Assembly (NCBI GenBank): GCA_947460245.1
Contig: CANHGL010000001.1
Span: 200,437 to 264,436 of the forward strand
DNA length: 64,000 bases
Source: Sphingobacteriales bacterium
Lineage (GTDB): Bacteria > Bacteroidota > Bacteroidia > Chitinophagales > JADIYW01
Reading direction: 5' to 3'
Part shown: positions 9,927 to 39,094 of the stretch, one piece after another
Position numbering within the stretch: the stretch's first letter is position 1
How the letters are laid out: each line of letters opens with the position of its first letter
Notes under the pieces: generated by a model
What the model was told of the DNA's origin: nothing
The model's database searches: none
What the model saw: the letters and a program-made list of their open reading frames with translations, nothing else
Position numbers and translations under genes: made by a program

Positions 9927-9927
9927 T

Positions 9928-20168: not shown

Positions 20169-20253
20169 ATATACACCAAATATACGGTAATTTTTTAGTG
20201 CCCTTGTGATCAAGACTTCAAATTTGGACTAAAAAATAAATAGGTATCGTTAT

Positions 20254-25438: not shown

Positions 25439-26521
25439 ATGACAAAAAAAATACTGAAAAATATAATTATTCTATTGTGCATCATATTGCTGCTATCCAC
25501 ACTAATAAATATGACACTTCCATTTTATTGGGGTGATACAACACAAACACTAAAATTTGATTTTTATAAAAAGAATAGCGAAAAATTTAATGCCGTATAT
25601 CTTGGCGGTAGCTTAGAATACCGACATGTTGACCCTTATGTTATAGACAGTGTACTTCAAAAGAAAGGCTATGATTTTCGCTCCTTTAATATTGCTGCCG
25701 ACGGACACACTATTATAGAAGAGATGACAGATCTTGACGGATTACTAGCCGTACATAATCCAGATCTGAAATATATATTTTTCAGCATCAGTAGTGAGCC
25801 ATATTTTTTTCCTGCTAATTTGCACACTAGCAAATGGGTTTCCTGGCATTCTGCCAAGTCAACTATTCATGCTTTAAAAATTATTCCTACACTTCCCGAC
25901 GACTTGAGAACACGTGTGAAGTTCTGCTATTTCTATGTGATAAGCTGGTTGGAAAACCTATTCAAGTTGGGACAAATGCCCGAAGTGATTCGCTACTACT
26001 CCCAAAGAGACACCTATAATAAAAACTACCTGGGAACTAAAGAAAACGGATTTTATCCATATGACGATGAAGAAAGTCATTCTTTTATGGAATACAAATG
26101 GGAAGACACACTAATACGTAAATCAAAGGAAGAATACATCAACAATTCCTCCAAAAGGGATAGCTTAACTAATGACATTATATCTAGTTTTGAAAATTAC
26201 AAAGACGCTGATAAGGCAAATGCCGCAATGGTAGCCTTATGCATGGAAGCTTATAAGAAATGTGCAAAAAAGGGAATTCAATTATTTTTTATTCTGCCGC
26301 CACGCGCCAGGACTAATTATACTCTTCTGCTTCCTGTATTTAATACAATGCCGGAGGGAAGCAAGATAGAAGTTGCAGACCCCAGAAAATACCCTAAATA
26401 TTATGAGGTAGATTATGGCTATAATTTCCATCATTTAAATGATAAAGGCGCACGGCTACAAAGCATAGACATGGCTAAACAGCTAGTGGAACTAATGAAA
26501 GTCCAACGAGATACACTATAA
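25439..26521 (+). CDS. MBOAT partner protein, DltD/AlgJ/SGNH-like (pair 2)
   Basis: ATG 25439 lies 4 nt after the MBOAT stop. N-terminal TM helix, VYLGGSLEYRHVD (Ser block) and YNFHHLNDKG (His block). The layout matches the pair-1 partner. Confidence 0.5.
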   Translation: MTKKILKNIIILLCIILLLSTLINMTLPFYWGDTTQTLKFDFYKKNSEKFNAVYLGGSLEYRHVDPYVIDSVLQKKGYDFRSFNIAADGHTIIEEMTDLDGLLAVHNPDLKYIFFSISSEPYFFPANLHTSKWVSWHSAKSTIHALKIIPTLPDDLRTRVKFCYFYVISWLENLFKLGQMPEVIRYYSQRDTYNKNYLGTKENGFYPYDDEESHSFMEYKWEDTLIRKSKEEYINNSSKRDSLTNDIISSFENYKDADKANAAMVALCMEAYKKCAKKGIQLFFILPPRARTNYTLLLPVFNTMPEGSKIEVADPRKYPKYYEVDYGYNFHHLNDKGARLQSIDMAKQLVELMKVQRDTL

Positions 26522-26531
26522 CCATAAGAGA

Positions 26532-27029
26532 TTAAATCTCACCCACCACCTGATGCACCTTAAAGGTATAATAGCGTTGATACAGATAAGAAAAGGTAAT
26601 TACAAAAATCGCAGCAAAGAGTTTCGATGGCAGTGGATAAAAATGGAATACTTCTATAAATATTTTTATAAAACCTATATTCAGCAACGTACAAATAAAA
26701 ACACCTGAAAGATACCTGAATAACTGGAGCCTCACATGCACCGGAGAATTCACCCATACCACATATCTGCTCATATAAAAACCTGTAGGAAAACTCAAGC
26801 CGAAAGAAATAAAGAATGCAGCAATATGTGGACTAAAGGTGTAAAAGGGCGTTTTGAAGTTTTGCTCATGGAATAGATAATGATAGGCAATGTAGAACAC
26901 TAACGTATCTAAAAATAAATTGATACCTCCACATGCCATATATAAATACTCCTGTTTCGGAATAAACTTAAAGAACCAACTTCTAATTAGCAATAATGAT
27001 TGCCTTATGAAATCCGCCATTATGATCAT
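26532..27029 (-). CDS. GtrA family membrane protein
   Basis: 165 aa with 4 TM helices. The LYMACGGINLFLDTLVFYI opening and the size fit GtrA-like proteins. It is the last gene of the wza-PKS operon. Confidence 0.6.
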   Translation of the reverse strand: MIIMADFIRQSLLLIRSWFFKFIPKQEYLYMACGGINLFLDTLVFYIAYHYLFHEQNFKTPFYTFSPHIAAFFISFGLSFPTGFYMSRYVVWVNSPVHVRLQLFRYLSGVFICTLLNIGFIKIFIEVFHFYPLPSKLFAAIFVITFSYLYQRYYTFKVHQVVGEI

Positions 27030-27068
27030 AACTGTAATTGAACTGCAAAGCTAATCAACTTCATCATT

Positions 27069-27755
27069 TTATTTACTTTTCAATAAATCCTGGATAGTTA
27101 AATGATGTAAATCCACATTAATCATTTGATTACTAGATACGCAACAGGAGTAATGTACATTAACATTAAGTGGCTGAAAAAACAACAATCTGCCATCACA
27201 ATATATCTTATCTGAATATTTTACTCCTAAAGATATGCCTTCATTATAATCTACCTGCGTTTTTGATAAGACCTCCACACCTCTGCCATCACATTTTATA
27301 GCACTCTCTTTTATCGCCCAAAAATCAAAGAAAGCAGTTATTTTATTGTCAGCAGCTTCTATCAGCGCCCACTCATTATCACTAAAATACTTTCTAAATA
27401 AAAGATAATCGAGCTGCCGATGTTTCTCTATATCTATCCCGACTTTGGCAGACTGTGAAACTGCCAACATTACATATTCTCCCGAATGCGAAATATTAAA
27501 ATCTATGTTCCCTTCAATATATGGCCTATCTTTCTCTGTTAATTGTAACTGATGCACGCTGAAAGGAATATCCATGTGTTTGAATGCATATGACAATAAC
27601 ATTTTTCCTAAAAGAGACGCCTGTGCACTTTCCCAATGTTTGTAAGCTTTTATTTCTAACTGAATAGGTACTGGTAAATCACTAAGACATTGCTGAAAGT
27701 CTTTTTCTTCCAATCGCTGGGAATAATTAAGACAGTAGAGTTGTATATTATCCAT
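27069..27755 (-). CDS. 4'-phosphopantetheinyl transferase, Sfp type
   Basis: VGIDIEKH (Mg site) and FWAIKESAIKCDG (W/F-x-x-KE-S/A-x-x-K). ATG 27755 is preferred over the track TTG 27764. Confidence 0.8.
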   Translation of the reverse strand: MDNIQLYCLNYSQRLEEKDFQQCLSDLPVPIQLEIKAYKHWESAQASLLGKMLLSYAFKHMDIPFSVHQLQLTEKDRPYIEGNIDFNISHSGEYVMLAVSQSAKVGIDIEKHRQLDYLLFRKYFSDNEWALIEAADNKITAFFDFWAIKESAIKCDGRGVEVLSKTQVDYNEGISLGVKYSDKIYCDGRLLFFQPLNVNVHYSCCVSSNQMINVDLHHLTIQDLLKSK

Positions 27756-27790
27756 AGATCCCAAACGATAAATTTAATAACTACTCTACT

Positions 27791-30700
27791 TTAATTTTCC
27801 TGCTTATTAATGGAAGGCAGGCGCTTATCTATTTTCTTAAACCATCGCATTAAAATACCATCTTGAGCCTTGATTTCGTGCCAATCTTGCTGATTATTAT
27901 CTGCCATTTCTTGTGCAAACATAACATCAGCTAATGTTACTGCCTGAGTGGTATCTACTGCTCCACCTCCAAAAAAAGTTTCTAATAAATACTGATATAA
28001 ATCTGAAGGAGTATTGTATTGATGAAGAACCTGCATGCTTAATTCAGCGTCTACATGTTTTTCCATTAAACTTAAAAACTCACCGCTCATCATGCTATCA
28101 AATCCTTGCTCCCGATAAGTTTTATGAAGATCTACCTTCTGGCCTGCTTGCAGCCCCAATACTTTGGCTGCTTCAAGTTGCATATACGCTAATAAAGTCT
28201 CCCGTGTAGCCCTTTTAGCAGGGATACTTATCTCCTGACGAACGGCTGTTGTAGCTAAATATGTTGTTGTCTTGTGCATAAACACAGGATCATCCCAGTA
28301 TACCCTTCTGTCCCAAGCGTAAGTAGGCAACTGCACGCGATTGATGCTTTTGCCGCCATATAACCTTTGCCAGGCTATAGAGATCCCTGTAGTATATAAT
28401 TGTTGTAGCGTTTCATTAAAATACTGAACATCTTCTGTGTCTTTTTTAGCCGAGGACAACCAAACTCCATTTGAATCTGTATTGGTCTGCTTAGCCAAAC
28501 TTATTAAGACAGGATTAGGCCCAACCTCTAAGTAGATGGAGACACCCATAGTATGCTGGATCCATTGGATACCGGCTGCAAACTGCACAGCACCACGTAT
28601 ATGATTGGCAAAATAAGTAGCAGTTAGATCCTCCACGTTTAGCGGTTTACCTGTAAGATTGGATATCACCGGAATCTCAGGCTGTCTAAATCTAAACTGC
28701 TGAACATATACTGTGAAGTCTTCCAGTATCGGCTCCATTAAATGGGAATGGAAAGCATGAGAAACATTTAATGCTATTGCTCTTATCTTTTTTTCTTTAA
28801 GCTGCTCTACAAATTGTTCTACCGCTTTTTTATTTCCGGATATCGTACAGTTTTTAACTGAATTTACTGCAGCAAGATCTATAGCCGTTCCTTCCAGAAG
28901 CGGCCTTAAGTCTTCGGCACTACAGAAAACAGAGGCCATGCCGCCTTCTTGCTGTGGCAGTGTATTCATGAATGTTGCTCTGGCTACTACTAGCTTAAGT
29001 GCATCTGATACATCCATTGCATTAGCTACCGCCAATGCTACAATTTCTCCAATACTATGACCTATCAATACAGTGGGCTGAACGCCATAGTGCATCCATA
29101 ATTTGGCCATTGCATATTCTACCACAAATAATGCCGGCTGAGTAAACTTTGTCTGATGAATCAAATTACTGTCACCGTCCTGTTGCCATAGTATATCTTT
29201 TATTGATACGCCAAGAAGCGGGCGAAGAACAAGATCACACTCCTCTACCGAATTTCTAAATACTTCAAATCCGTCATAGTACCCTTGAAACATTCCAAAA
29301 TACTGAGCGCCCTGTCCAGTAAATAAAAAAGAAAGCTCCTTCCCGCCACGTAACTCAGGATTAGAGACTATATAGCTATTCGATACTACACCATTTAGAA
29401 ATGATCCTAAACCATCTTGCAATTCTTCTTTTGTATTTCCTAAAATAGATAATGCATAATCAAAATGATTCCTGCCAGTTTGGAGCGTGTTGCATATCTC
29501 TGTTAAAGTGTATCTATCCCATATATTGACATTATTTAAATATCGCTGTGCTATTCCTCTAAGACTATCCTGATTCTTGGCACTAATGATAAAATGAAAT
29601 GGACCTACTGTATCTTCCGATTTACATTTCGGCTTAGGCGCTTCAAAAATCATATGTACATTAGTGCCGCTGTATCCCGATAGATTTATAGCAACAGCAA
29701 TAGGCTTATCAGAATTGGAAAGATCAACGGGTACTGTAGAAACACAGGTATTTATTTTATCCCACTCCACATCCTCGTTCAGTGTATTGATATTGATCTG
29801 TGCAGGAATTCTTTTATTGCGAACAATCTCTATCAGCTTAAACAGCATCGGCATTCCGGTTGCTGCTTCCAGGTGCCCGATATTTGCCTTTACAGAGCCA
29901 ACATAAATTGGCGTATTCCTTCCTAGATAGCCTTCGTGAATAGACTGAATCTCTATTGCATCTGTAAATCTATTTCCTATACCATGCGACTCCACATAAA
30001 GAATATCCTCTGCCGATAGTCCGGAATCCTTAAGTGCTTCCTTTATTGCCAAAGTGATTACTTCCGGATTGGGAGCTGTGAATCCATTGCTGCTTCCATT
30101 GTGCTTTACTGCAGAACCTTTAATAACTAACTCTATATTGTCATTATCTCGTTCTGCATCGCTTAATCGCTTTAACAAGGCGACGCCACAACCCTCCCCT
30201 CTAATATAACCATCCCCATCATTAGCGAACGCTTTACACTGATCAGAAGAAGAAAGTGATCCTAATTTAGAGAGTCCGACAAACATCTCTGGTGTCAATA
30301 ATAAGTTAGCAGAAGATACTACTGCTAAGTCAATCGTATTCTTTTGTAAATCTTCTTTTGCGAGATGCAATGCCAAAACTGTAGATGCGCAGGCCGCATC
30401 CACATTATAGCTTGGACCCGTAAAATCATAACTAAAAGAAACACGACCACCGGCAGTTCCGAATAAGATACCTGTCGTATCATATACATCTACAAGTTCT
30501 AAATTGCCACTTCTAAATCTCGCTGAAATATAATCTGAATTGCCAAGCGCTATATACACTCCTGTGTTGCTTCCTTTCAGGCTTTCAGATGGTATCGCTG
30601 CATTTTCGAAAGCTTCATAAACAACTTCCAGCACCATACGTTGCAATGGATCTAAGGACTTTGCTTCACGTGGTGCAATAGAAAAAAAAGCGGCATCGAA

Positions 30701-31042
30701 ACTCCGTACGTCATTTTCTAACAAAGTGGCAAACCTTGCATTCGTCTTTCCAGGCTTATGCTCATCGGAGTCATAAATGGAGTCTATATCAAATCTATCT
30801 ACTGGAAATTTCCTGGATACCGATTTCTCGGCTTGCAAGAGCCTCCATAGTTGCTGGGTAGTATCTATATTATCAGGTAAGCGAACGCCACATCCAACTA
30901 TGGCAATTGCCTCTTTTTGTTCAGAAAATACTGTTGAAATTGTATGTTCTTTTACAGCAGCTAACTGACCTTCCAATGTCTTAATTTTTATTAGAGACTT
31001 CTGGAGCACCTGTTGCATCTGCTGTAATTGTTCGTTCGTCAT
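27791..31042 (-). CDS. type I polyketide synthase module 2: N-docking coiled coil, KS-AT-ACP, no TE
   Basis: KS: VDAACASTVLAL (Cys ~218), ESHGIGN, NIGHLEAATG. AT: GHSIGE and SHAFHS. ACP: GFDSMMSGEF. The N-terminus MTNEQLQQMQQVLQKSLIKIKTLEGQL is coiled-coil-like. About 70 aa of unassigned tail follow the ACP. Confidence 0.9.
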   Translation of the reverse strand: MTNEQLQQMQQVLQKSLIKIKTLEGQLAAVKEHTISTVFSEQKEAIAIVGCGVRLPDNIDTTQQLWRLLQAEKSVSRKFPVDRFDIDSIYDSDEHKPGKTNARFATLLENDVRSFDAAFFSIAPREAKSLDPLQRMVLEVVYEAFENAAIPSESLKGSNTGVYIALGNSDYISARFRSGNLELVDVYDTTGILFGTAGGRVSFSYDFTGPSYNVDAACASTVLALHLAKEDLQKNTIDLAVVSSANLLLTPEMFVGLSKLGSLSSSDQCKAFANDGDGYIRGEGCGVALLKRLSDAERDNDNIELVIKGSAVKHNGSSNGFTAPNPEVITLAIKEALKDSGLSAEDILYVESHGIGNRFTDAIEIQSIHEGYLGRNTPIYVGSVKANIGHLEAATGMPMLFKLIEIVRNKRIPAQININTLNEDVEWDKINTCVSTVPVDLSNSDKPIAVAINLSGYSGTNVHMIFEAPKPKCKSEDTVGPFHFIISAKNQDSLRGIAQRYLNNVNIWDRYTLTEICNTLQTGRNHFDYALSILGNTKEELQDGLGSFLNGVVSNSYIVSNPELRGGKELSFLFTGQGAQYFGMFQGYYDGFEVFRNSVEECDLVLRPLLGVSIKDILWQQDGDSNLIHQTKFTQPALFVVEYAMAKLWMHYGVQPTVLIGHSIGEIVALAVANAMDVSDALKLVVARATFMNTLPQQEGGMASVFCSAEDLRPLLEGTAIDLAAVNSVKNCTISGNKKAVEQFVEQLKEKKIRAIALNVSHAFHSHLMEPILEDFTVYVQQFRFRQPEIPVISNLTGKPLNVEDLTATYFANHIRGAVQFAAGIQWIQHTMGVSIYLEVGPNPVLISLAKQTNTDSNGVWLSSAKKDTEDVQYFNETLQQLYTTGISIAWQRLYGGKSINRVQLPTYAWDRRVYWDDPVFMHKTTTYLATTAVRQEISIPAKRATRETLLAYMQLEAAKVLGLQAGQKVDLHKTYREQGFDSMMSGEFLSLMEKHVDAELSMQVLHQYNTPSDLYQYLLETFFGGGAVDTTQAVTLADVMFAQEMADNNQQDWHEIKAQDGILMRWFKKIDKRLPSINKQEN

Positions 31043-31048
31043 TCAGGA

Positions 31049-34000: not shown

Positions 34001-35509
34001 TACGAACACCTCACGCACAGGAAAGTGCGTTCTGCGCAAAGCAGCCATAGCGCAAATATCCTCGAGAAGATAATCTGAATGAGTAATAAAATCGAGATAC
34101 TTTTTTACCAGTGCAATAAGTGCTTCTTCGTTTTTTGCCGACAAGGGAAGTATGAAGATATCATCTCTAACCTTATCTGTTTTTTCTGATGAAAGCGCCG
34201 GAGCTTCCTGTATGATAGCATGTGCATTGGTTCCGGTTATTCCGAATGTATTAACCCCGGCAATACGCGGTTTATTATCCGGCCATGGCATTGGCTCCTT
34301 AGGTATAGTAAGTCCTATATCATCCCATGCAACTTTAGGATTTGGATGATCGAAGTGCAAGCTAGGAAGAATCATATTATGTTGAATAGATACAACTGTC
34401 TTCAACAAACCCGCTAAGCCCGCTACAGCTTCTGTATGACCAAAATTAGTTTTAACAGAGCCTGCATAAATCTTATCTTCTTTAGTGCGATGATCCGAGA
34501 ATGCATTCCATATAGATTTTATTTCTGCGGGATCGCCAGCCTTCGTTCCAGTTCCGTGTGCTTCTACGTATATAATATCATTCGGGTCGATACCAGAACG
34601 TTGTATGGCTTTTCGAATCATCACCTCTTGCGTGGTAGCACTTGGTGCAAAAAGATTCTTGTGGGATTGACCGTCGCTATTGCAAGCTGTAGATAAAACC
34701 ACTGCATGAATTCGATCGCCTGCTTTAACTGCATCACTTAATCTTTTTACAATAATCATGGCGGCACCTTCACTGCGCACATAGCCTGTAGAACGTTCAT
34801 CACCAAACCTACATTCTCCATATTCAGAAAGCAATCCTGAGCGCGAATAGCCAATAGAGACAAAGAAATCTGTTATCGTATTGGAGGCCCCTACAAAAGC
34901 CATATCGCACTCTCCCGTATTTAAGCTCTGAGAAGCAATGTTAAGTGCTACCAAAGAGGAGGAACAGGCAGTATCTACTGTAAGAGAGGGACCTTGCAAA
35001 TTAAAGATATAAGATAACCTTCCTGATAATGCATAACGTCCACTTCCGGTAGTAGCATATACATCAATATCCTGATTACCATCTTTAAGCCTATGCTCAT
35101 AATCGCTGGTCCAGTTACCTACGAATACCCCTGTATTAGAACCTTGTAATACCTCATCTGTCAACCCTGCATTTTCTATAGACTCCTGGGTAACCTCTAA
35201 CAGCAAGCGCTGCGCAGGATCTATTTTTTCAGCCTCTAATGGAGAGATATTAAAGAACGCTGCATCGAAATACTCTACATTTTCTATGAAGCCTCCACGC
35301 TTAGTGATAATCTTATTCTTCTCTCTGTCCTTATTCACTAAGGCATCGAGATTAGGGATACGCGAAGCAGGATAATCAGTTATAGCATCTGTCTTATTAA
35401 TCAACAACTTCCATAAATCATCCAAAGAGTGAACGCCTCCCGGGAATCGACACCCGATGCCTATAATAGCCAAGGGTTCCAACCTGATATTGTTTAATTC
35501 CGGGTTCAC
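31049..35509 (-). CDS. type I polyketide synthase module 1: KS-AT-KR-ACP
   Basis: KS: VDTACSSSLVAL (Cys ~182), EAHGTGT, NFGHTEAVAG. AT: GHSMGE and VASHSPQM. KR: YIVTGGNDGLGFE, AAGVLDDA, SSIVGVLGSAGQSNYAAAN. ACP: YGIDSLLALQ. The start codon is GTG, and the stop lies 6 nt before the module-2 ATG. Confidence 0.9.
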   Translation of the reverse strand: MNPELNNIRLEPLAIIGIGCRFPGGVHSLDDLWKLLINKTDAITDYPASRIPNLDALVNKDREKNKIITKRGGFIENVEYFDAAFFNISPLEAEKIDPAQRLLLEVTQESIENAGLTDEVLQGSNTGVFVGNWTSDYEHRLKDGNQDIDVYATTGSGRYALSGRLSYIFNLQGPSLTVDTACSSSLVALNIASQSLNTGECDMAFVGASNTITDFFVSIGYSRSGLLSEYGECRFGDERSTGYVRSEGAAMIIVKRLSDAVKAGDRIHAVVLSTACNSDGQSHKNLFAPSATTQEVMIRKAIQRSGIDPNDIIYVEAHGTGTKAGDPAEIKSIWNAFSDHRTKEDKIYAGSVKTNFGHTEAVAGLAGLLKTVVSIQHNMILPSLHFDHPNPKVAWDDIGLTIPKEPMPWPDNKPRIAGVNTFGITGTNAHAIIQEAPALSSEKTDKVRDDIFILPLSAKNEEALIALVKKYLDFITHSDYLLEDICAMAALRRTHFPVREVFVAKNKAELEEQLSDFVSAATYESKKIFDQEDEPKTVFVFPGQGAQWAQMGNALMQQEVVYRATLEEINTVYKKYVDWDLLEELEKEEQHSRLNEIGIVQPALVAVEIALASLWMSKGVFPDIVVGHSMGEVAAAYVAGNISLHEAAQIIITRSNLMQQVSGRGEMGATDLTVEEANEYLKGYEDKLSVAVMNSKNATVLSGDPHALDEIFSKLEAEGRFNRKVKVDVASHSPQMDNIRVQLKSSLQNIQPKNSSIQFYSTAFNQIKSGEELDAAYWGNNLRNPVQFGNAIQSIASLNNAVYIEMSPHPTLLMAIQENLQDVSNNSEVIGSYVRDRNEQIEFYKNYTALFSCGVPFDWKNIYPSIGAFVELPTYAWQKERYWIEVEQKLTEASLKSQFSIKENLFEIHWNSIVIKPKLSAQKILIIEDAYGYYQEVENRLLEMGCEVSVVGVEENLIGIEATCILHLGSLHKEDIYNCSYNSGVGSLQRILQYFGDKKLKVVTITNGANILKDVAEDKQINLNAALLTGVIRTLQYEYSNVEFVQLDLSAQIKETEINNIPSLAFADPLYKELALRGSEVYAPAIIQSENQELGKTISSEATYIVTGGNDGLGFETVKWLAEKGARHIAVLSRSGFKAAIQKEAEALAGVHIHSYITDVANFDTLQHTIEEIRKMHPEIKGVFHAAGVLDDALLENSTEDKFNHTLYPKANGAWNIHRLFPGDSLDIFVVYSSIVGVLGSAGQSNYAAANTFLDALVAFRRKNHMAGLSVNWGTIADVGLAARHDNRGKRLEGSGLVPIPSAALHHYFDKLFLSNLDQIIAADINFDHWVASNPDVKNNFILSKVLSAATETPEDTTSMTFANLSAATKYLKQEIKQAIASVTKINQHKIREEDTFKSYGIDSLLALQIKNKLQKDLKVSLNVSVIWSYPTVNKLADFLAKELKIEQQFNSVASLMEVKEKSAIESEVEALSLEELLKQLSDKVN

Positions 35510-35555
35510 GTAATAAATTTAATTAAATTGTTTGTATTTAAAGGACAACAGCGCC

Positions 35556-36614
35556 TTACTGATTTGCCATACGAAGCCTATCTTCCTCTCTACCATCTTG
35601 CACTGCTTTGCTCAACATCAGAGGAATAATAATCAAAACCAAACTCGCTACTATACCAATTGCCGTATACAGCAATTTACTTAAATATTTAGGAGCTGTG
35701 GAGAACATCGGGTCATCCACTGTTCTTACAATATTATTCTGTGGCGTGAGTCCTACTTTTGCATTCTCTCTGGACATACTCGCATCATTGTATAAAATAC
35801 TCAATGAAGCCAAATCCTGCATTAGTTTCTGTTGCGCTATAACATTCTCTCTCTTCTTGTTAAATATATTTATATCCTGTGATGCTGCTATCAATTGCTG
35901 CTTATTCGCAATTGCATTTGATATGGAATCCACTCTTCTTGAGGTATTCTCAAATGTGGTTTTTGCATTCTCTACTTGTTTATTCTGATAAAACTGTATC
36001 GTATATTTCAGCATAGCTGCACCAAGCTGTTTAGATAGCTCATAATCCGGAGTTTCCACTTCTGCCCTTATCATCCCGGTAGGAAGATCCAACTCTGCAG
36101 TCATCAAGCCATCGCTAAAATCATCATACATAGTAGAGAACAAATCCATCTCTTTCTTGCTAATTTCCCTTATAGAGTTAGCGGTGAACTTAAAGCCTTT
36201 CAACTCTGGATCATCTTCAAAACCATCGTCGTACTTATAGGCATGCATGTAAACATTAGCAATTTTTTCTCGCTTTCCATTGACTTCCATATCGGATAAC
36301 ATCGCATTGAGAAAGATAAATCTGGAGCTAAAGATTCCTGTTAATACATCATTAGATGAACCTCCGGAAAAAGAAATGCCCATCATAGACATGATACCCC
36401 CCATAGCACTGGCCTTGGAATCAACAGCATTAAACGAAATGTTTGCAATGTAAGTAGGCGGCGTAAGCTTAGCATAGAAATAGCCTCCTAAGGTTAATAC
36501 AAGCACCCCAACAACGGATATATACCATCGCTTCAATATGTATACTAAATAACTTTTAAGGGATTCTAATACATCCACTAACCGTATATCTTCTTCCGAA
36601 AATTGCTCTTGCAT
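35556..36614 (-). CDS. Wzz-type chain-length determinant protein (no tyrosine-kinase domain)
   Basis: Wzz N-terminal region (DIRLVDVLESLKSYL, then a TM helix), a long coiled-coil periplasmic segment and a C-terminal TM helix (LLYTAIGIVASLVLIIIPL). No Walker A/B motifs and no Tyr-rich tail. ATG 36614 lies 4 nt after the wza stop. Confidence 0.65.
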   Translation of the reverse strand: MQEQFSEEDIRLVDVLESLKSYLVYILKRWYISVVGVLVLTLGGYFYAKLTPPTYIANISFNAVDSKASAMGGIMSMMGISFSGGSSNDVLTGIFSSRFIFLNAMLSDMEVNGKREKIANVYMHAYKYDDGFEDDPELKGFKFTANSIREISKKEMDLFSTMYDDFSDGLMTAELDLPTGMIRAEVETPDYELSKQLGAAMLKYTIQFYQNKQVENAKTTFENTSRRVDSISNAIANKQQLIAASQDINIFNKKRENVIAQQKLMQDLASLSILYNDASMSRENAKVGLTPQNNIVRTVDDPMFSTAPKYLSKLLYTAIGIVASLVLIIIPLMLSKAVQDGREEDRLRMANQ

Positions 36615-36618
36615 ACGT

Positions 36619-39063
36619 TTATTTTTTAAGCACAAATATTAAGGTCAGCGTAGTAGCTATAGATGTCACTGCTGCGATAACACTCGGCAAAACTATATTC
36701 CAGTTTAATACAGACTCAGGTCCTTTCGGTGGCTTAGGTGCTTTATTCTTCATTTCCACTGTAATCAAAGCACCTTCCACATCTACTGTTGGATAATCTT
36801 TTATTCCTATGAAAGAGTGCGTATAATCCACTTTTCTGTTGGGATAAATAACCAAGGTAGAATTTTTATTAGCTCCCTTCTTAAAGCCTCCTCCATAATG
36901 TTTAATATACCATCTAGCACTTTTTCCGGGAACAAACTTACCGCTTACTGTTTCAGCGCTATCCAATTCAGGATATCGTATGGCACCTCTTATACTCACC
37001 AGCTGATTTACCGTTGGAATATCAATAGAATCTCCATTCTTTAAGAACATATTTGCCCTAGATAAGGTATCTCCAAACGCTTCATTGAGTTGAAAAATCG
37101 TTTTATTCAATGCTTTATCTGTTCGGGTTAAAGCCGCATTTTTTATAAAAGCATACGTCGTTAATCCACCGGCACGTTCAATTAAATCTAAAACCCTCTC
37201 ATGTTTATCGAGAATAGGATATACCCCAGGATACTTTACTTCTCCGGTAATAGTAACTGTCATCTGTTCATCAAAGCCATAAGCCTTACGCACGAAAACT
37301 TTATCCATCGGCGATAAAATAAACCCTTTGGATGTTTCATCCAGCTCAAGATTAGAGCCAATGGTAATGGTCTGAACCAATGCGCGCTGTGGCATGAATT
37401 TCTGTGCAGCAGAGGAGTCAATATTAATTACCCTCGAAATTTCTATTTTTGAATTTGCGGCCTCTTTTTTAAATCCTCCGGCATAAAATAATAAATCATT
37501 CAATGTCATACCCTCAGTATACTGCATCGTGTCTGATTTAATAACAGAACCGTCTATGGTAACCACAAATTTCTCAACGAAATTATCCTTTGAAAAAATC
37601 TGAATATTATCAAAACGTCTGAGCAGAATATTATCTGCACTTGTTTCGCTTTCCAAAATATTCTTCAATGAAAACTTCTGATTAACATAGGTATTGTTTT
37701 CCAGCGTTCTATTGATATAGGCTCTATCAAGATAAGCATCCAGTTTTATGCCTCCGGCCATCTTGATTACATCTGAAATTCTGTATCCTTCCTTCAACTC
37801 GTATTTACCCGGATAACGAACTGTACCGCTGATTTCGATATAGTTTTCTATTCCACCCGGTACTGAAGTAATGGTAACTACATCACCATCTTTTAAATCA
37901 AAATCCTTTCCGGACTTTATCAGTTGATCATAATCTATATCTAAAATCTGCGACTGATCATTACTGATTCTTGTAATCTGTATAGTTTTGGTATATGCTT
38001 CCGGAGCAAACCCTCCAGAAAAACGAATAAGTGTAGAGAGCTTCTCATTGTCTAATAACTCATAGCTGGATGGCCTACGAACAGCCCCCATCACTTTTAC
38101 TAGTTTCTTTTGTGTAGATACGTAAATGAAATCTCCTTTCTGAAGATAGAAGTTTTCCAACAGTAAAGGATTAAACAAAAACTCATAGACATCAAAACGT
38201 TTGATGGTTTTACCATCTCTTCTCACCTGAATATCTCTGACGCTACCAATATCTGTAATTCCGCTGGCTGCGTTGATGGCATTATATACCGAGTTCACCG
38301 CTGGAATCTGATACGTTCCTGGTGTAATTACTTCTCCAACAATATTAACCTCAATAGTCCTTGCATAATTCAATGCAATTTCATATTTAGTATTAGCAGG
38401 ATCAATGAAGGTGGCTAATCGCTTGCCTATTTGCGCCTTAACTGCCCCAAAGGTGAGTCCTTTTACATATACTCTACCAAACTCCGGTATTTGAATATAA
38501 CCATCTTCATTTACTTTAAATTTATTGTTGTAGTCTGCATCTCCATAAACAGAAATACTAATCTCATCCCCAACACCCAATACATAACTATCGGGAGCTT
38601 TTGCATCTGATGATTTAACAAATAAAGCCAGCTTACCTGTGCCAAAAAAATCATGTCCGAAAATACCTTTTGAAAGCGCTTCTTTATTGGTCTGTTTAAT
38701 GCGCTCTTGCTCCTGAGAAAGCGTTAACAATAAGGAATCTTTTGTTGCTTTAATTTGCAACAACATCTGTATCATATCCTGAGGTGCTAATCCAAGGTCT
38801 AACTTTGAATTCTGACTTTGATCCGCTTTATCTTTCAGGTACTTCTGAACGGCGGTAGGATCCAAGCCCAATAACTGCAATTGCGATAAACTTGAATTCA
38901 CAGCTGGACTGCTGAAACTCATTGACTGTAATTGCTTAGCTGCGCCTGCTGCAGCTGCAGTAACTCCTGTACCGGTTAAAGCACCAGAAAAATTTCCAAG
39001 GCTTTGGGAATGCATCGCCATTACCGAACAGAGCAGGAAACACAGCGTAACAAATTTTCTCAT
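36619..39063 (-). CDS. wza: outer-membrane polysaccharide export protein (Wza family, multiple SLBB domains)
   Basis: Signal peptide MRKFVTLCFLLCSVMAMHSQ. Poly_export-like YVLGVGDEISISVYGD, followed by repeated SLBB-like units (V.V.G.V..PG.Y.......L.D.I..AGG). Confidence 0.8.
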   Translation of the reverse strand: MRKFVTLCFLLCSVMAMHSQSLGNFSGALTGTGVTAAAAGAAKQLQSMSFSSPAVNSSLSQLQLLGLDPTAVQKYLKDKADQSQNSKLDLGLAPQDMIQMLLQIKATKDSLLLTLSQEQERIKQTNKEALSKGIFGHDFFGTGKLALFVKSSDAKAPDSYVLGVGDEISISVYGDADYNNKFKVNEDGYIQIPEFGRVYVKGLTFGAVKAQIGKRLATFIDPANTKYEIALNYARTIEVNIVGEVITPGTYQIPAVNSVYNAINAASGITDIGSVRDIQVRRDGKTIKRFDVYEFLFNPLLLENFYLQKGDFIYVSTQKKLVKVMGAVRRPSSYELLDNEKLSTLIRFSGGFAPEAYTKTIQITRISNDQSQILDIDYDQLIKSGKDFDLKDGDVVTITSVPGGIENYIEISGTVRYPGKYELKEGYRISDVIKMAGGIKLDAYLDRAYINRTLENNTYVNQKFSLKNILESETSADNILLRRFDNIQIFSKDNFVEKFVVTIDGSVIKSDTMQYTEGMTLNDLLFYAGGFKKEAANSKIEISRVINIDSSAAQKFMPQRALVQTITIGSNLELDETSKGFILSPMDKVFVRKAYGFDEQMTVTITGEVKYPGVYPILDKHERVLDLIERAGGLTTYAFIKNAALTRTDKALNKTIFQLNEAFGDTLSRANMFLKNGDSIDIPTVNQLVSIRGAIRYPELDSAETVSGKFVPGKSARWYIKHYGGGFKKGANKNSTLVIYPNRKVDYTHSFIGIKDYPTVDVEGALITVEMKNKAPKPPKGPESVLNWNIVLPSVIAAVTSIATTLTLIFVLKK

Positions 39064-39086
39064 TATAAATGGACTTATTGAACTGG

Positions 39087-39094
39087 CAAAGTTA
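39087..39094 (-). promoter_or_regulatory. candidate Bacteroidota -7 promoter box (TAacTTTG) for the wza-wzz-PKS operon
   Basis: The plus strand reads CAAAGTTA, which is TAACTTTG on the minus strand and matches TAnnTTTG. It lies 23 nt upstream of the wza ATG. No clear -33 element was seen. Confidence 0.35.

What the first reader, a model, noticed from the sequence alone, without database searches (positions are those of the whole stretch)
26532..39063. Modular type I PKS transcriptionally wired into a Wza/Wzz polysaccharide-export operon
Seen in sequence: six genes run co-directionally on the minus strand. They are wza (39063->36619), a Wzz-like chain-length protein (36614->35556, 4-nt gap), PKS-1 KS-AT-KR-ACP (35509->31049, 46-nt gap) and PKS-2 KS-AT-ACP (31042->27791, 6-nt gap). 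An Sfp-type PPTase (27755->27069) and GtrA (27029->26532) complete the set. I see no hairpin terminator or TAnnTTTG box inside the block; the only such box is upstream of wza (39087-39094).

Established knowledge: Wza and Wzz act on polysaccharides, while modular PKSs build carrier-bound acyl chains. The two are normally in separate loci.

Inference: the polyketide may be (a) an acyl decoration on the exported polymer, (b) the lipid aglycone or anchor of an exported glycolipid, or (c) a co-exported small molecule.

I cannot judge novelty without database searches. The arrangement is not one I recognise from characterised capsule, EPS, heterocyst-glycolipid or PUFA systems.
Basis: partly seen in the sequence, partly recalled or inferred. 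Interest (0 to 1): 0.85.

Follow-up and report, generated by a model that had tools for sequence, protein, structure and literature searches.

The report
PKS cassette inside a polysaccharide-export locus
An uncultured Chitinophagales bacterium carries a two-module polyketide synthase inside a polysaccharide-export gene cluster, beside a membrane acyl-transfer enzyme pair, and this recurring arrangement suggests, without proving, that the exported sugar polymer is decorated with a polyketide-derived acyl group.

Summary
The six genes are real, at the stated coordinates and with the stated domains. The "Wzz" is a kinase-less polysaccharide co-polymerase recognisable only by fold. The claim of a single TAnnTTTG box is wrong.

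The adjacency is not accidental. wza-PCP-PKS1-PKS2 is contiguous in 13 of 37 related genome loci, all uncultured Chitinophagales-type MAGs, and survives rearrangement in a distant relative (L026).

The block abuts an MBOAT with a C-terminal acyl-Tyr shuttle motif (FVYFQY) and an unannotated protein with a DltD fold. This pair is followed by Wzx, an AT3 acyltransferase and GT4, and further on by Wzy-like, GT-C-like and glycoside-hydrolase genes, so the locus spans 11.3-39.1 kb. In an independent sample anchored on the DltD-like gene, 14 of 22 evaluable loci have a PPTase and/or PKS within 10 kb. Two of them (L047, L048) have a PPTase, one with a type II thioesterase, but no PKS.

Best reading (confidence about 0.4): a Dlt-like pathway in which the PKS-2 ACP thioester, rather than DltC, feeds the MBOAT/DltD-like pair to esterify the polymer. 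Rivals are a lipid anchor or a free small molecule.

Precedents exist (WcbR/RkpA, the F. psychrophilum wfp genes, Dlt). I found no paper describing PKS-to-MBOAT coupling. New variant of a known kind.

The parts
36619..39063 (-). Wza-type outer-membrane polysaccharide export (OPX) protein, 814 aa. It has a signal peptide, a Poly_export domain, 5 SLBB domains and a C-terminal hydrophobic helix.
   Evidence: Pfam PF02563 5e-18 and PF10531 2e-46; termini read; orthologues 68-72% identical in 13 syntenic loci.
39077..39094 (-). Promoter-like motif TAACTTTGCCAGTTCAAT, lying upstream of the wza ATG at 39063.
   Evidence: A near-identical motif recurs upstream of gtrA.
35556..36614 (-). Two terminal TM helices, a periplasmic alpha/beta base with a long helical hairpin, and no kinase domain.
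   Evidence: No significant Pfam hit. AF2 pLDDT 80. The Foldseek top 50 are all PCPs, led by KpsE at 8e-8. TM helices. The ATG lies 4 nt after the wza stop.
31049..35509 (-). PKS-1, KS-AT-KR-ACP, 1486 aa. KS has Cys182/His/His. The AT has GHSMGE and a non-canonical VASH motif. The KR is B-type (LDD). The ACP has a GIDSL site. There is a C-terminal docking tail (LSLEELLKQL). There is no loading domain and no N-terminal docking element.
   Evidence: Pfam; motifs; VASH and the tail are conserved in all orthologues.
27791..31042 (-). PKS-2, KS-AT-ACP, 1083 aa. It has an N-terminal coiled-coil docking region. KS has Cys218/His353/His390. The AT is malonyl-type (GHSIGE...HAFH). The ACP serine is Ser983. 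There is no KR, DH, ER or TE. A family-specific post-ACP tail, DWHEIK..D..L.RWFKK.DK, is present.
   Evidence: Pfam; motifs; closest solved relatives are CurL and DEBS; the tail is conserved in all 37 orthologues and found only in this family.
27069..27755 (-). Sfp-type 4'-phosphopantetheinyl transferase, 228 aa.
   Evidence: Pfam PF01648 and PF22624. It is adjacent to PKS2 and/or the MBOAT/DltD-like pair in most relatives, including the PKS-less loci L047 and L048.
27037..27053 (-). Promoter-like motif TAGCTTTGCAGTTCAAT in the 39-nt PPTase-gtrA gap.
26532..27029 (-). GtrA-family small membrane protein, a putative polyprenyl-phosphate-sugar flippase component. It is accessory: present in many relatives but absent from some.
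   Evidence: Pfam PF04138 3e-10; distribution.
25439..26521 (+). u376, a DltD-like (SGNH-like) extracytoplasmic acyltransferase partner of MBOAT1, 360 aa from M17. It has an N-terminal TM anchor. Ser58 (GGSLEYRH) and Asn329/His332 (YNFHHLN) are invariant.
   Evidence: No Pfam or PDB sequence hit. The family has 67 clusters, all annotated hypothetical. AF2 pLDDT 92.9. The Foldseek top 12 are all DltD, with probability 1.0 (11 of 12; rank 12 is 0.99) and TM-scores of 0.32-0.40. Invariant residues.
23923..25434 (+). MBOAT1, a membrane-bound O-acyltransferase. It has the RWHISL catalytic-His motif and a C-terminal acyl-shuttle hexapeptide, FVYFQY. Its stop is 4 nt before the u376 start.
   Evidence: Pfam PF03062; TIGR04091 DltB 5e-40, below its cut-off; its only solved sequence relatives are DltB structures at 8e-22; the C-terminal motif is conserved in 14 orthologues.
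22458..23810 (-). Wzx-type (MOP/Polysacc_synt) flippase, divergent from MBOAT1.
   Evidence: Pfam PF01943, PF01554 and PF03023. It is the conserved neighbour of the MBOAT/u376 pair in nearly all related loci.
21250..22428 (-). AT3-family (Acyl_transf_3) membrane acyltransferase.
   Evidence: Pfam PF01757 2e-21.
20254..21246 (-). GT4 glycosyltransferase.
   Evidence: Pfam PF00534 1e-26; conserved next to Wzx.
18252..20213 (-). PhoD-like phosphodiesterase/phosphatase with a type IX secretion C-terminal sorting domain. It is conserved inside the locus, and its role there is unexplained.
   Evidence: Pfam PF09423 2e-80 and PF18962; conserved in L001-3, 7, 13, 33, 52, 54 and 56.
16791..18224 (-). 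MBOAT2, a second MBOAT ending in the shuttle motif FIYFQF. It is accessory and absent from relatives L052 and L054.
   Evidence: Pfam PF03062 1.5e-24; C-terminus; absence in relatives.
15790..16788 (-). u332, a TM-anchored SGNH/DltD-like partner of MBOAT2 (WVGGSN ... DTYYHLN).
   Evidence: TM helix and sequence. It matches the u376-family HMM at E=2.4e-4 over the C-terminal His region. This assignment is weak.
14154..15812 (-). u552, a polytopic membrane protein (about 12 TM helices) with a C-terminal soluble domain. It is a candidate GT-C-type glycosyltransferase, which is an inference.
   Evidence: No Pfam hit; hydropathy; conserved in L008, 19, 50, 52, 54, 56 and 66.
12823..14157 (-). u444, a polytopic membrane protein (9-10 TM helices). 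It is a candidate Wzy-type polymerase, which is an inference.
   Evidence: No Pfam hit; hydropathy; conserved in L050, L054 and L066.
11313..12839 (-). u508, a secreted protein with clan GH-A-like motifs (GIELGNEF, WLTEWN). It is a candidate locus-associated glycoside hydrolase.
   Evidence: Sequence; weak PDB hits to GH51 arabinofuranosidases at E about 0.013; conserved in L050 and L066.

Best explanation
The 11.3-39.1 kb region is one Wzx/Wzy-type exopolysaccharide locus. It contains an OPX (Wza), a PCP, Wzx, a Wzy-like protein, GT4, a GT-C-like protein and a glycoside hydrolase. A carrier-protein-based acyl-supply cassette is built into it.

Proposed mechanism:
1. The Sfp-type PPTase converts the two PKS ACP domains to their holo forms. 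This follows from established knowledge of the family.
2. PKS-1 (KS-AT-KR-ACP) extends a starter once and reduces it to a D-3-hydroxyacyl thioester. The starter is unknown. It may be acetyl obtained by self-priming, or an acyl group from fatty-acid synthesis.
3. Matched docking tails pass the chain to PKS-2 (KS-AT-ACP). PKS-2 adds one malonyl unit and stops, leaving a 5-hydroxy-3-oxoacyl thioester on its ACP. With an acetyl starter this would be 5-hydroxy-3-oxohexanoyl. The product is inferred from domain content.
4. PKS-2 has no release domain. I propose that its ACP thioester is the donor for MBOAT1, as D-alanyl-DltC is the donor for DltB.
5. MBOAT1 moves the acyl group through the membrane onto the Tyr of its own C-terminal FVYFQY motif.
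6. The membrane-anchored DltD-like protein u376 takes the acyl group on Ser58 and esterifies the polysaccharide, or its lipid-linked repeat unit, on the periplasmic side.
7. The polymer leaves through the PCP/Wza pair.

What is shown: the gene content, the folds and motifs, and the conserved neighbourhood. What is inferred: the donor-acceptor pairing of PKS-2 ACP with MBOAT1, the chain length, and the identity of the acceptor.
For: (1) Recurrence of the linkage. wza-PCP-PKS1-PKS2 is contiguous in 13 of 37 orthologous loci. PKS2-(TEII)-PPTase-(GtrA) | u376-MBOAT | Wzx-GT4 occurs in at least 14 of them.

(2) Both linkages survive rearrangement. In L026 (PKS2 47% identical), wza-PCP-PKS1 sits on one arm and PKS2-TEII-PPT-u376-MBOAT-Wzx-GT4 on the other. 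The second arrangement is also present in the deepest branch, L032.

(3) Unbiased reciprocal sample. Among loci anchored on u376, 14 of 22 evaluable ones have a PPTase and/or PKS within 10 kb. In L047 and L048 the PPTase, and in L047 also a type II thioesterase, stays next to MBOAT-u376 although no PKS is nearby. These enzymes service carrier proteins and have no role in acetyl-CoA-dependent O-acetylation.

(4) Fold and sequence relatives. The u376 fold matches only DltD, and the only solved sequence relatives of MBOAT1 are DltB structures. Dlt is the one MBOAT/SGNH pathway known to use a phosphopantetheinyl carrier thioester (PMC12148441).

(5) MBOAT1 carries the acyl-Tyr shuttle motif and the catalytic-His motif, so it looks like a competent trans-membrane acyl shuttle.

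(6) PKS-2 never has a fused TE in about 100 family clusters. It carries a conserved, family-specific tail after the ACP that could be a hand-off element.

(7) This window has lost the discrete TEII while both PKS genes keep all catalytic residues. That argues TEII has an editing role rather than being the obligatory release step.

(8) MBOAT1-u376 is the conserved pair, whereas MBOAT2-u332 is accessory.
Against: (1) MBOAT1 is of the PatA/AlgI type, with the shuttle motif fused. Those systems are described as using acyl-CoA donors and lacking a carrier protein (PMC12148441). An ordinary O-acetylation role therefore needs no PKS.

(2) Eight of 22 u376-anchored loci have no PPTase or PKS within 10 kb.

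(3) PKS2 orthologues with the same tail occur alone or in 3-PKS arrays, with no EPS or MBOAT genes within 10 kb. The tail therefore cannot be shown to be an MBOAT-docking element.

(4) Most relatives encode a type II thioesterase beside PKS2, which could release a free acid.

(5) No test of physical ACP-MBOAT interaction was possible.

(6) The Foldseek TM-scores of u376 against DltD are modest (0.32-0.40), and its catalytic acid residue is not assigned.

(7) All the sequences come from uncultured MAGs. There is no chemistry, transcript or mutant data.
Confidence: 0.4

Rival explanations
1. Lipid part of the polymer. The PKS pair extends a fatty-acyl starter into a hydroxy/oxo long-chain acyl group. 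This becomes the lipid aglycone or reducing-end anchor of an exported glycolipid or lipid-anchored polysaccharide, analogous to what is proposed for WcbR/RkpA in capsule loci. Under this reading the MBOAT/DltD-like pairs and the AT3 protein only O-acetylate the glycan from acetyl-CoA.
For: - Type I PKS genes in capsule loci are an established precedent (PMC3908369).
- The best structural match of the PCP is KpsE, which handles lipid-anchored capsule.
- The locus has few recognisable glycosyltransferases and no initiating phosphoglycosyl transferase.
- Relatives with an extra fully reducing module (KS-AT-DH-ER-KR-ACP) upstream of PKS1-PKS2 suggest that chain building can be part of the system.
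- PKS-1 has no loading module, which is compatible with a fatty-acyl starter.
- The fused shuttle motif on the MBOATs fits acyl-CoA use (PMC12148441).
Against: - No KpsMT ABC transporter, KpsC/S, or any cytoplasmic acyltransferase that could move an ACP-bound chain onto a sugar or glycerol is present in the window.
- The locus has Wzx and a Wzy-like protein, which is an undecaprenyl-linked pathway that needs no special anchor.
- This reading does not explain why the PPTase and TEII stay next to the MBOAT/DltD-like pair where the PKS is absent.
Confidence: 0.22
2. Cytoplasmic acylation of a sugar precursor. The ACP-bound short hydroxy/oxo-acyl chain is transferred in the cytoplasm onto a nucleotide-sugar or lipid-linked repeat unit. 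This would be a type I version of the F. psychrophilum wfpC-G system, which puts 3,5-dihydroxyhexanoyl on an amino sugar.
For: - The wfp locus uses two KSs, one KR and one ACP to make a C6 dihydroxyacyl substituent on an O-antigen sugar in another Bacteroidota member (PMC6519341). The same acyl group occurs in V. cholerae O100 (PMC12024518).
- The enzymatic inventory here is close to that set: two KSs, one KR and carrier domains.
Against: - The locus and window contain no PglD/LbH-type N-acyltransferase and no amino-sugar aminotransferase or dehydratase genes.
- Only one of the two keto groups could be reduced by the encoded domains.
- The conserved neighbours are extracytoplasmic transfer proteins, not cytoplasmic ones.
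Confidence: 0.1
3. Co-regulated free small molecule. The PKS product is released as a free 5-hydroxy-3-oxo acid, either by the type II thioesterase present in relatives or by spontaneous lactonisation or decarboxylation. It would then act as a dihydropyrone or methyl ketone, serving as a signal, surfactant or matrix additive that is merely co-expressed with the EPS.
For: - A discrete thioesterase sits beside PKS2 in nearly all EPS-linked relatives.
- A delta-hydroxy-beta-keto thioester is chemically prone to lactonise (established polyketide chemistry).
- PKS2 orthologues also occur outside EPS loci, alone or in 3-PKS arrays.
Against: - The window lacks the thioesterase yet keeps intact PKS genes.
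- The recurrent embedding between wza-PCP and the MBOAT/DltD-like-Wzx block, preserved through rearrangement, is more than co-regulation usually requires.
- PPTase and TEII without a PKS sit beside the MBOAT pair in L047.
Confidence: 0.18
4. Accidental adjacency. The PKS cassette is a mobile or recently inserted secondary-metabolite cluster with no functional relation to the polysaccharide genes.
For: - PKS2 orthologues occur in unrelated contexts in some clades.
- GC content is slightly higher across the PKS genes (0.39-0.40) than in the flanks (0.35-0.37).
Against: - The same order is conserved in 13 or more species-level genomes with protein identities down to 60%.
- Both halves of the linkage persist in relatives at 44-47% identity.
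- The association is reciprocal from the u376 side.
- There are no mobile-element genes at the borders.
Confidence: 0.05

Closest known systems
Dlt pathway of teichoic-acid D-alanylation (DltA, DltC, DltB, DltX, DltD)
   Same: - It pairs an MBOAT (DltB) with a membrane-anchored DltD-fold protein that moves an acyl group from the cytoplasm onto an extracytoplasmic glycopolymer.
- The donor is a thioester on a phosphopantetheinylated carrier.
- Transfer goes through an acyl-Tyr intermediate in an FxYxxF-type hexapeptide.
- Here MBOAT1 matches DltB structures, u376 matches only DltD structures, and a PPTase is a conserved neighbour.
   Different: - There is no DltA adenylation enzyme, no small DltC and no separate DltX.
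- The shuttle motif is fused to the MBOAT, as in PatA/AlgI.
- The proposed donor is an ACP domain of a modular PKS carrying a polyketide chain rather than D-alanine.
- The host is Gram-negative, and the acceptor is presumed to be a Wzx/Wzy-type polysaccharide.
- MBOAT1 scores far below the DltB equivalog cut-off, 138 against 375 bits.
PatA/PatB, AlgI/AlgJ/AlgX and WssH/WssI-type MBOAT-SGNH polymer O-acetyltransferases
   Same: - The MBOAT has a fused C-terminal acyl-Tyr shuttle motif and a separate extracytoplasmic Ser-His transferase.
- The genes lie inside polymer-biosynthesis loci (PMC12148441).
   Different: - Those systems are described as using acetyl-CoA, without a carrier protein or PPTase.
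- Their partners are PatB/AlgX-type SGNH proteins, whereas u376 resembles DltD specifically.
- This module is recurrently linked to PKS, PPTase and TEII genes.
WcbR (Burkholderia) and RkpA (Sinorhizobium): type I PKS/FAS in capsule loci
   Same: A type I PKS is encoded inside a surface-polysaccharide biosynthesis and export cluster, and is thought to provide a lipid component for the polymer (PMC3908369).
   Different: - Those are ABC-transporter (KpsMT/KpsE/KpsD-type) capsule systems of Proteobacteria, with a single large PKS.
- Here the pathway is of the Wzx type, the PKS is a docked bimodule (KS-AT-KR-ACP plus KS-AT-ACP), and the conserved partner is an MBOAT/DltD-like pair.
- Direct sequence relatedness to WcbR/RkpA was not tested.
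Flavobacterium psychrophilum O-antigen wfpC-wfpG genes (3,5-dihydroxyhexanoyl on Qui2NAc4N)
   Same: - It is a Bacteroidota glycan locus encoding two ketosynthases, a ketoreductase and a carrier protein.
- These are predicted to build a short hydroxylated acyl chain that ends up on the polysaccharide (PMC6519341).
- It is the closest match for the predicted carbon skeleton, if the starter here is acetyl.
   Different: - The wfp proteins are discrete type II proteins, and transfer is cytoplasmic N-acylation by a PglD-like enzyme.
- Here the enzymes are type I modular, only one keto group can be reduced, no PglD-like gene is present, and the neighbouring transferases act outside the cytoplasm.
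Mycobacterial PKS-to-sugar acylation (e.g. Pks2/PapA1 in sulfolipid-1)
   Same: PKS-bound acyl chains are off-loaded directly onto sugar hydroxyls by a dedicated acyltransferase instead of a thioesterase. This rests on my own knowledge. NCBIfam does list Pks2 among the better-scoring models for PKS-1.
   Different: - Transfer there is cytoplasmic, by PapA-type condensation-like enzymes, onto trehalose, and export goes through MmpL.
- No MBOAT or DltD-like step is involved, and the acceptor is not a polysaccharide.

Membership tests
Dlt D-alanylation system | DltA: a D-alanine-specific adenylation enzyme (AMP-binding) | tested here: not met
   No AMP-binding domain protein was found among the ORFs scanned across the 64-kb window (>=90-100 aa).
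Dlt D-alanylation system | DltC: a small stand-alone phosphopantetheinyl carrier protein | tested here: not met
   The only carrier domains in the window are the two PKS ACPs. An HMM search of all ORFs of at least 45 aa found no stand-alone carrier.
Dlt D-alanylation system | DltB: an MBOAT with a catalytic His | tested here: inconclusive
   MBOAT1 hits DltB structures at 8e-22 and has the RWHISL motif. However, it scores 138 bits against TIGR04091, whose cut-off is 375. It is a homologue, not an equivalog.
Dlt D-alanylation system | DltD: a membrane-anchored SGNH-like transferase | tested here: met
   The u376 AF2 model (pLDDT 92.9) has DltD as all 12 of its top PDB matches, with probability 1.0 (0.99 for rank 12) and TM-scores of 0.32-0.40. 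It has an N-terminal TM anchor and invariant Ser58 and His332. There is no sequence-level hit.
Dlt D-alanylation system | DltX: a separate microprotein carrying the C-terminal FxYxxF acyl-Tyr motif | tested here: not met
   The motif is fused to the MBOAT C-terminus (FVYFQY).
MBOAT-SGNH polymer O-acyltransferase pairs (PatAB/AlgIJ type) | An MBOAT with a fused C-terminal hexapeptide carrying an invariant Tyr | tested here: met
   MBOAT1 ends in FVYFQY and MBOAT2 in FIYFQF. The motif is conserved in 14 orthologues. It is defined in PMC12148441.
MBOAT-SGNH polymer O-acyltransferase pairs (PatAB/AlgIJ type) | An adjacent extracytoplasmic SGNH-family partner with a Ser-His-Asp triad | tested here: inconclusive
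   u376 and u332 are adjacent to their MBOATs and TM-anchored. u376 has invariant Ser and His candidates, but the acid residue is not assigned: the motif reads NxxH where DxxH is expected. The fold matches DltD rather than PatB or AlgX.
MBOAT-SGNH polymer O-acyltransferase pairs (PatAB/AlgIJ type) | An acyl-CoA (acetyl-CoA) donor with no carrier protein | not testable with these tools
   Only the genomic context speaks to this. The PPTase, TEII and PKS neighbours argue for a carrier-dependent donor, but this is inference.
cis-AT modular type I PKS | KS-AT-(reductive domains)-ACP modules with active-site residues and inter-subunit docking elements | tested here: met
   Domains. Cys/His/His in both KSs, GHSxG in both ATs and DSL-type serines in both ACPs. 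The closest solved structures are CurL and DEBS. Conserved C- and N-terminal docking-like tails are present.
cis-AT modular type I PKS | A loading module and a terminal release domain (TE or R) | tested here: not met
   PKS-1 begins directly with the KS at residue 11, and PKS-2 ends with the ACP plus a 60-aa tail. Relatives carry a discrete type II TE that this window lacks.
WcbR/RkpA-type capsule PKS systems | Association with ABC-transporter capsule export (KpsM/KpsT, KpsC/KpsS) | tested here: not met
   No ABC-transporter or KpsC/S-like protein was found in the window. A Wzx flippase is present instead. The PCP does resemble KpsE in fold.
WcbR/RkpA-type capsule PKS systems | Sequence orthology of the PKS to WcbR/RkpA | not tested
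Family hits below 43% identity are generic PKSs.
Heterocyst-glycolipid (Hgl) and PUFA-type synthases | KS-CLF pairs, tandem ACPs, FabA-type DH, a terminal thioester reductase, and DevBCA export | tested here: not met
   None of these domains are present in PKS-1 or PKS-2. PfaA and HetI models score far below their cut-offs.
Wzx/Wzy-dependent polysaccharide pathway | A Wzx flippase, a Wzy polymerase, a PCP and an OPX | tested here: inconclusive
   Wzx and OPX are supported by Pfam, and the PCP by fold. Wzy is inferred only from the polytopic topology of u444. No initiating phosphoglycosyl transferase is present in the window.

The most novel reading that the evidence does not exclude
A Dlt-like trans-envelope acylation route in a Gram-negative lineage, in which the terminal ACP of a modular type I PKS is the direct acyl donor to an MBOAT. 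This would give an exopolysaccharide esterified with a polyketide (5-hydroxy-3-oxoacyl) group. It would be the first MBOAT shown to off-load an assembly-line PKS, and a new chemical class of polysaccharide decoration.
Probability: 0.33. Interest if true: 0.8.

Novelty: new variant of a known kind. Interest (0 to 1): 0.6.

Why it matters
If the PKS ACP feeds the MBOAT, three fields would connect.

1. PKS off-loading would gain a new release logic: a membrane O-acyltransferase in place of a thioesterase.
2. For MBOAT/SGNH polymer acylation, the carrier-protein donor would stop being a peculiarity of the Gram-positive Dlt pathway.
3. Exopolysaccharide chemistry would gain polyketide esters as a new way to tune hydrophobicity, charge or cross-linking of the matrix.

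The carriers are Chitinophagales/Saprospirales-type bacteria recovered repeatedly from activated sludge and freshwater metagenomes. In those settings EPS properties plausibly affect floc structure, which is an inference. The work also assigns folds to two previously unannotated protein families: a DltD-like family of 67 clusters and a PCP family of 69 clusters.

Even on the conservative reading, this locus is a defined and recurrent target for testing how acyl groups other than acetyl reach surface polymers.

Tried and rejected
- 'DltB-like MBOAT implies an ACP donor' as a stand-alone argument. Rejected, because both MBOATs carry the fused PatA-type shuttle motif, and generic MBOATs also hit the DltB model.
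- 'PKS-2 has no release enzyme in this family.' Rejected as a general statement, because relatives carry a type II thioesterase between PKS2 and the PPTase. It holds only for this window.
- Stand-alone carrier proteins with the PKS-2 tail, which might have explained the PKS-less MBOAT-PPTase loci. None were found locally or among 1.84 billion representative proteins. The short hits begin mid-domain at residue 1 and are probably truncated fragments; their contig positions were not given.
- u376 and u332 as close paralogues. BLASTP shows no similarity, and only a weak profile match exists.
- Sequence-only identification of the PCP and of u376. Pfam, NCBIfam and PDB phmmer/hmmsearch all failed. 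Structure prediction was needed.
- Linking PKS-less u376 loci and solitary PKS2 loci to the same genomes. The look-ups returned metagenome or Logan contigs rather than the MAG records, so genome-level co-occurrence stays untested.
- Heterocyst-glycolipid and PUFA synthase membership. Rejected on domain content.
- A KpsMT-type export route, suggested by the KpsE-like fold. No ABC transporter is present in the window.
- Literature searches for MBOAT together with polyketide synthase and polysaccharide, and for Chitinophagales PKS/EPS. Nothing relevant was found.
- The sigma-70 promoter scan. It found fewer sites than the shuffled expectation (43 against 59.7) and is not informative for Bacteroidota.

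Full report
OBSERVATION

Pfam confirms the following:
- an 814-aa Wza-type OPX protein (Poly_export plus five SLBB domains);
- PKS-1 as KS-AT-KR-ACP (1486 aa);
- PKS-2 as KS-AT-ACP (1083 aa);
- an Sfp-type PPTase;
- a GtrA-family protein.

The junctions are 4, 46, 6, about 35 and 39 nt.

The "Wzz" gene has no significant sequence-family hit (Pfam Wzz E=0.14). Its homologues form a small unannotated family of 69 clusters. An AF2 model (pLDDT 80) matches only polysaccharide co-polymerases: KpsE at 8e-8, then the periplasmic part of Wzc, then WzzE/WzzB. It has two terminal TM helices and no kinase domain. It is therefore a PCP of undetermined subclass.

Eleven minus-strand matches fall inside the block, and the window-wide count (88) is what chance gives (79 +/- 7.6). 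The two intergenic boxes, upstream of wza and in the PPTase-gtrA gap, share an extended motif, TA(A/G)CTTTGC(C)AGTTCAAT. So gtrA probably has its own promoter. No convincing internal terminator was found. Co-transcription is plausible from the gaps but cannot be tested here.

EXTENT OF THE LOCUS

The block is only the upstream third of a larger polysaccharide locus running from 11313 to 39063.

Immediately downstream, on the opposite strand and converging on gtrA, lie two genes:
- MBOAT1 (23923-25434);
- an unannotated 360-aa protein, u376 (25439-26521), starting 4 nt after the MBOAT1 stop.

The minus-strand genes then continue as follows:
- a Wzx-type flippase;
- an AT3 acyltransferase;
- a GT4 glycosyltransferase;
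- a PhoD-like phosphodiesterase with a T9SS sorting domain;
- a second MBOAT, with its own TM-anchored partner u332;
- a 12-TM protein, u552 (GT-C-like by inference);
- a 9-10-TM protein, u444 (Wzy-like by inference);
- a secreted clan-GH-A-like protein, u508.

Upstream of wza the genes are unrelated housekeeping: mnmE, citrate synthase and TonB-ExbBD. No initiating phosphoglycosyl transferase and no ABC transporter is present in the window.

THE PKS

Both KS domains have the Cys/His/His set.
- The AT of PKS-2 is malonyl-type (GHSIGE...HAFH).
- The AT of PKS-1 has GHSMGE with a non-canonical VASH motif, conserved in all orthologues. I do not call its substrate.
- The KR has the LDD motif of B-type reductases.
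- PKS-1 starts directly with its KS and has no loading module.
- PKS-1 ends in a conserved acidic tail (LSLEELLKQL..), and PKS-2 starts with a coiled-coil region. This is the usual signature of a docked pair.
- The closest solved relatives are CurL and DEBS modules, so this is a canonical cis-AT assembly-line PKS.

From the domain content, the enzyme-bound end product is a 5-hydroxy-3-oxoacyl thioester on the PKS-2 ACP. The starter, and hence the chain length, is unknown.

After its ACP, PKS-2 carries a 60-residue tail with the motif DWHEIK..D..L.RWFKK.DK. The tail is conserved in all 37 orthologues. In an exhaustive search of 1.84 billion representative proteins it occurs only in this family.

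COMPARATIVE EVIDENCE ANCHORED ON PKS-2

PKS-2 defines a sharply bounded family. About 100 clusters share the architecture at 43-67% identity, nearly all from Chitinophagales/Saprospirales/Sphingobacteriales-labelled MAGs. The next hits are generic PKSs at about 30%.

A scan of one genome per species returned 37 orthologous loci. tblastn and phmmer mapping gives these results:
- mnmE | wza-PCP-PKS1-PKS2 is contiguous in 13 loci.
- PKS2-(TEII)-PPTase-(GtrA) | u376-MBOAT | Wzx-GT4 occurs in at least 14 loci.

On an NJ tree of PKS-2 the EPS-linked context fills the main clade. It reappears on two deep branches:
- L026 (47% identity) has wza-PCP-PKS1 on one arm and PKS2-TEII-PPTase-u376-MBOAT-Wzx-GT4 on the other, with mnmE between them.
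- L032 (44% identity) has PKS1-PKS2-TEII-PPTase-u376-MBOAT-Wzx-GT4.

Both linkages therefore survive rearrangement and deep divergence.

The linkage is not universal.
- One clade has solitary PKS2 genes among housekeeping genes (L024, L037 and others).
- Another clade has three-PKS arrays, with a fully reducing KS-AT-DH-ER-KR-ACP module followed by PKS1 and PKS2, and no EPS genes within 10 kb.
- L016 and L017 have the PKS pair with PCP and wza 8-10 kb away on the other strand.

THE MBOAT PAIR

u376 has no Pfam, NCBIfam or PDB sequence match. It belongs to a family of only 67 clusters, all annotated hypothetical. Its AF2 model is confident (pLDDT 92.9). All 12 of its top PDB matches are DltD, with probability 1.0 (0.99 for rank 12) and E-values of 3e-5 to 7e-4. 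The TM-scores are modest, 0.32-0.40. It has an N-terminal TM anchor, an invariant Ser58 (GGSLEYRH) and invariant Asn329/His332 (YNFHHLN).

The only solved sequence relatives of MBOAT1 are DltB structures (8e-22). Both window MBOATs end in FVYFQY or FIYFQF, and this is conserved in every orthologue. This is the acyl-Tyr shuttle hexapeptide described for PatA-type MBOAT/SGNH systems. In the Dlt pathway the same motif sits on the separate microprotein DltX (PMC12148441).

That paper also states that Dlt is the MBOAT/SGNH system that uses a carrier-protein thioester, while the fused-motif systems use acyl-CoA. The motif therefore shows that MBOAT1/u376 is a competent trans-membrane acyl-transfer pair. 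It does not tell us the donor.

MBOAT2/u332 is absent from close relatives such as L052 and L054, so it is accessory. MBOAT1/u376 is the conserved core.

RECIPROCAL, UNBIASED TEST

The PKS2-anchored sample is biased by construction, so I anchored a second sample on u376. It consists of five look-ups of distant homologues and one metagenome scan giving 26 loci, all mapped with phmmer.
- Of 22 loci with enough downstream sequence to judge, 14 have a PPTase and/or PKS within 10 kb and 8 do not.
- Among close relatives the split is 11 to 3. Among distant ones it is 3 to 5.

L047 and L048 are the most telling. There the order is GT4-Wzx | MBOAT-u376 | PPTase, and in L047 a type II thioesterase follows the PPTase. 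No PKS lies within 10 kb.

A PPTase and a type II thioesterase both service carrier proteins, and neither has any role in acetyl-CoA-dependent O-acetylation. Their persistence beside the MBOAT/DltD-like pair is the strongest argument that this module depends on a carrier-bound acyl donor.

No stand-alone carrier gene was found in those loci. The carrier would have to be encoded elsewhere, possibly by the solitary PKS2 genes. I could not test that idea, because the look-ups did not return the MAG records.

A CORRECTION FOUND ON THE WAY

In relatives, 700-880 bp separate PKS2 from the PPTase. This space holds a 232-aa type II thioesterase (PF00975, E=3e-29 and 1e-36).
- It is present in 22 PKS2-anchored loci and 8 distinct u376-anchored loci (L058 and L059 are duplicates).
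- The window has no copy anywhere (no phmmer hit; best tblastn E=0.49).
- The PKS2 stop and the PPTase ATG are only about 35 nt apart in the window.

The canonical cassette is therefore PKS1-PKS2-TEII-PPTase-(GtrA), and this window has lost TEII. Both PKS genes are intact here, so the thioesterase appears dispensable. That fits an editing role rather than product release. A copy elsewhere in the genome cannot be excluded.

INTERPRETATION

High confidence (about 0.8): the PKS cassette is a functional part of the polysaccharide locus.

Preferred mechanism (about 0.4): a Dlt-like pathway in which the PKS replaces DltA and DltC. The steps are as follows.
1. The PPTase activates the ACPs.
2. PKS-1 and PKS-2 build a short or medium 5-hydroxy-3-oxoacyl chain.
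3. The PKS-2 ACP thioester is the donor for MBOAT1.
4. MBOAT1 acylates its own C-terminal Tyr on the outer face of the membrane.
5. u376 takes the acyl group on Ser58 and esterifies the polymer or its lipid-linked repeat unit.
6. The polymer leaves through the PCP and Wza.

Rival readings:
- a lipid aglycone or anchor, as proposed for WcbR/RkpA (0.22). This is helped by the KpsE-like PCP and the scarcity of glycosyltransferases, and hurt by the absence of any ABC transporter or cytoplasmic lipid acyltransferase;
- a free small molecule released by TEII or by lactonisation (0.18);
- cytoplasmic acylation of a sugar precursor, as in the F. psychrophilum wfp system (0.10). No PglD-like or amino-sugar genes are present;
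- accidental adjacency (0.05).

COMPARISON WITH KNOWN SYSTEMS

The system works most like Dlt, but it is not a member. DltA, DltC and DltX are absent, and MBOAT1 is far below the DltB equivalog cut-off.

It meets the motif criterion of PatA-type MBOAT/SGNH pairs. It differs from them in having a DltD-fold partner and carrier-servicing neighbours.

PKS genes in glycan loci have precedents:
- WcbR/RkpA (PMC3908369);
- the type II wfpC-F genes, which make a 3,5-dihydroxyhexanoyl sugar substituent in another Bacteroidota member (PMC6519341). The same acyl group occurs in V. cholerae O100 (PMC12024518).

I found no paper in the searchable library that links an MBOAT to a PKS in a polysaccharide context, and none on Chitinophagales PKS-EPS loci. 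The library is incomplete, so this is absence of evidence only.

VERDICT

I rate this a new variant of known kinds, with interest 0.6. Everything mechanistic beyond gene content, folds and synteny is inference. All sequences come from uncultured organisms.

Noticed in passing
window 27756-27790; compare L001:13271-13987, L033:13248-13946, L047:11777-12652: A type II thioesterase gene (PF00975, about 232 aa) lies between PKS2 and the PPTase in 22 PKS2-anchored and 8 u376-anchored related loci. It is cleanly absent from this window, where the two genes are about 35 nt apart and no copy exists within the 64 kb.
   Followed up: yes
window 57822-59614 (+) and 62426-63984 (-): These look like genes for a GDP-heptose-type nucleotide-sugar pathway: SIS/GmhA-like, NTP_transferase, HAD/GmhB-like, a GHMP kinase and a GT1 fragment at the window edge. 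In relative L043 a GT4 and a GHMP kinase sit directly beside the PCP and wza genes, so these may feed the same polymer.
   Followed up: partly
window 18252-20213 (-): A PhoD-like phosphodiesterase with a type IX secretion sorting domain is conserved inside the EPS locus in at least nine related loci (L001-3, 7, 13, 33, 52, 54, 56). Its role is unexplained. It might indicate a phosphodiester-containing, teichoic-acid-like polymer.
   Followed up: partly
window 39077-39094 (-) and 27037-27053 (-): A shared 17-18-nt motif, TA(A/G)CTTTGC(C)AGTTCAAT, occurs upstream of wza and of gtrA. It extends the Bacteroidota -7 box and is possibly a locus-specific promoter or regulator site.
   Followed up: partly
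L008, L019, L023, L028/L042, L034, L035, L046: Some relatives have a third, fully reducing module (KS-AT-DH-ER-KR-ACP, about 2100 aa) upstream of PKS1-PKS2. In L008 and L019 this array is still followed by TEII-PPTase, AT3, u376-MBOAT and Wzx. In the others no EPS genes lie within 10 kb.
   Followed up: partly
window 16791-18224 and 15790-16788 (-): A second MBOAT (ending FIYFQF) has its own TM-anchored SGNH/DltD-like partner, u332. The pair is absent from close relatives L052 and L054, so it appears to be an accessory insertion giving this genome two MBOAT pairs plus an AT3 in one locus.
   Followed up: partly
window 4355-8988 (-): A carotenoid biosynthesis cluster: two CrtI-like FAD oxidoreductases, a Rieske oxygenase and a Caroten_synth-family protein.
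   Followed up: no
window 9072-11310 (+): A short-chain dehydrogenase and an aldehyde dehydrogenase, with overlapping ORFs, converge on the last EPS gene (u508). Their relation to the locus is unknown.
   Followed up: no
window 31049-35509 (-), AT domain around residue 730: The PKS-1 AT has a VASH specificity motif in place of HAFH (malonyl) or YASH (methylmalonyl). It is invariant in all 25 PKS1 ORFs examined. The extender, or a dual starter/extender role, is unassigned.
   Followed up: partly
window 49676-51287 (-): A DUF5777 membrane beta-barrel protein next to a YceI-like protein, with no apparent relation to the finding.
   Followed up: no
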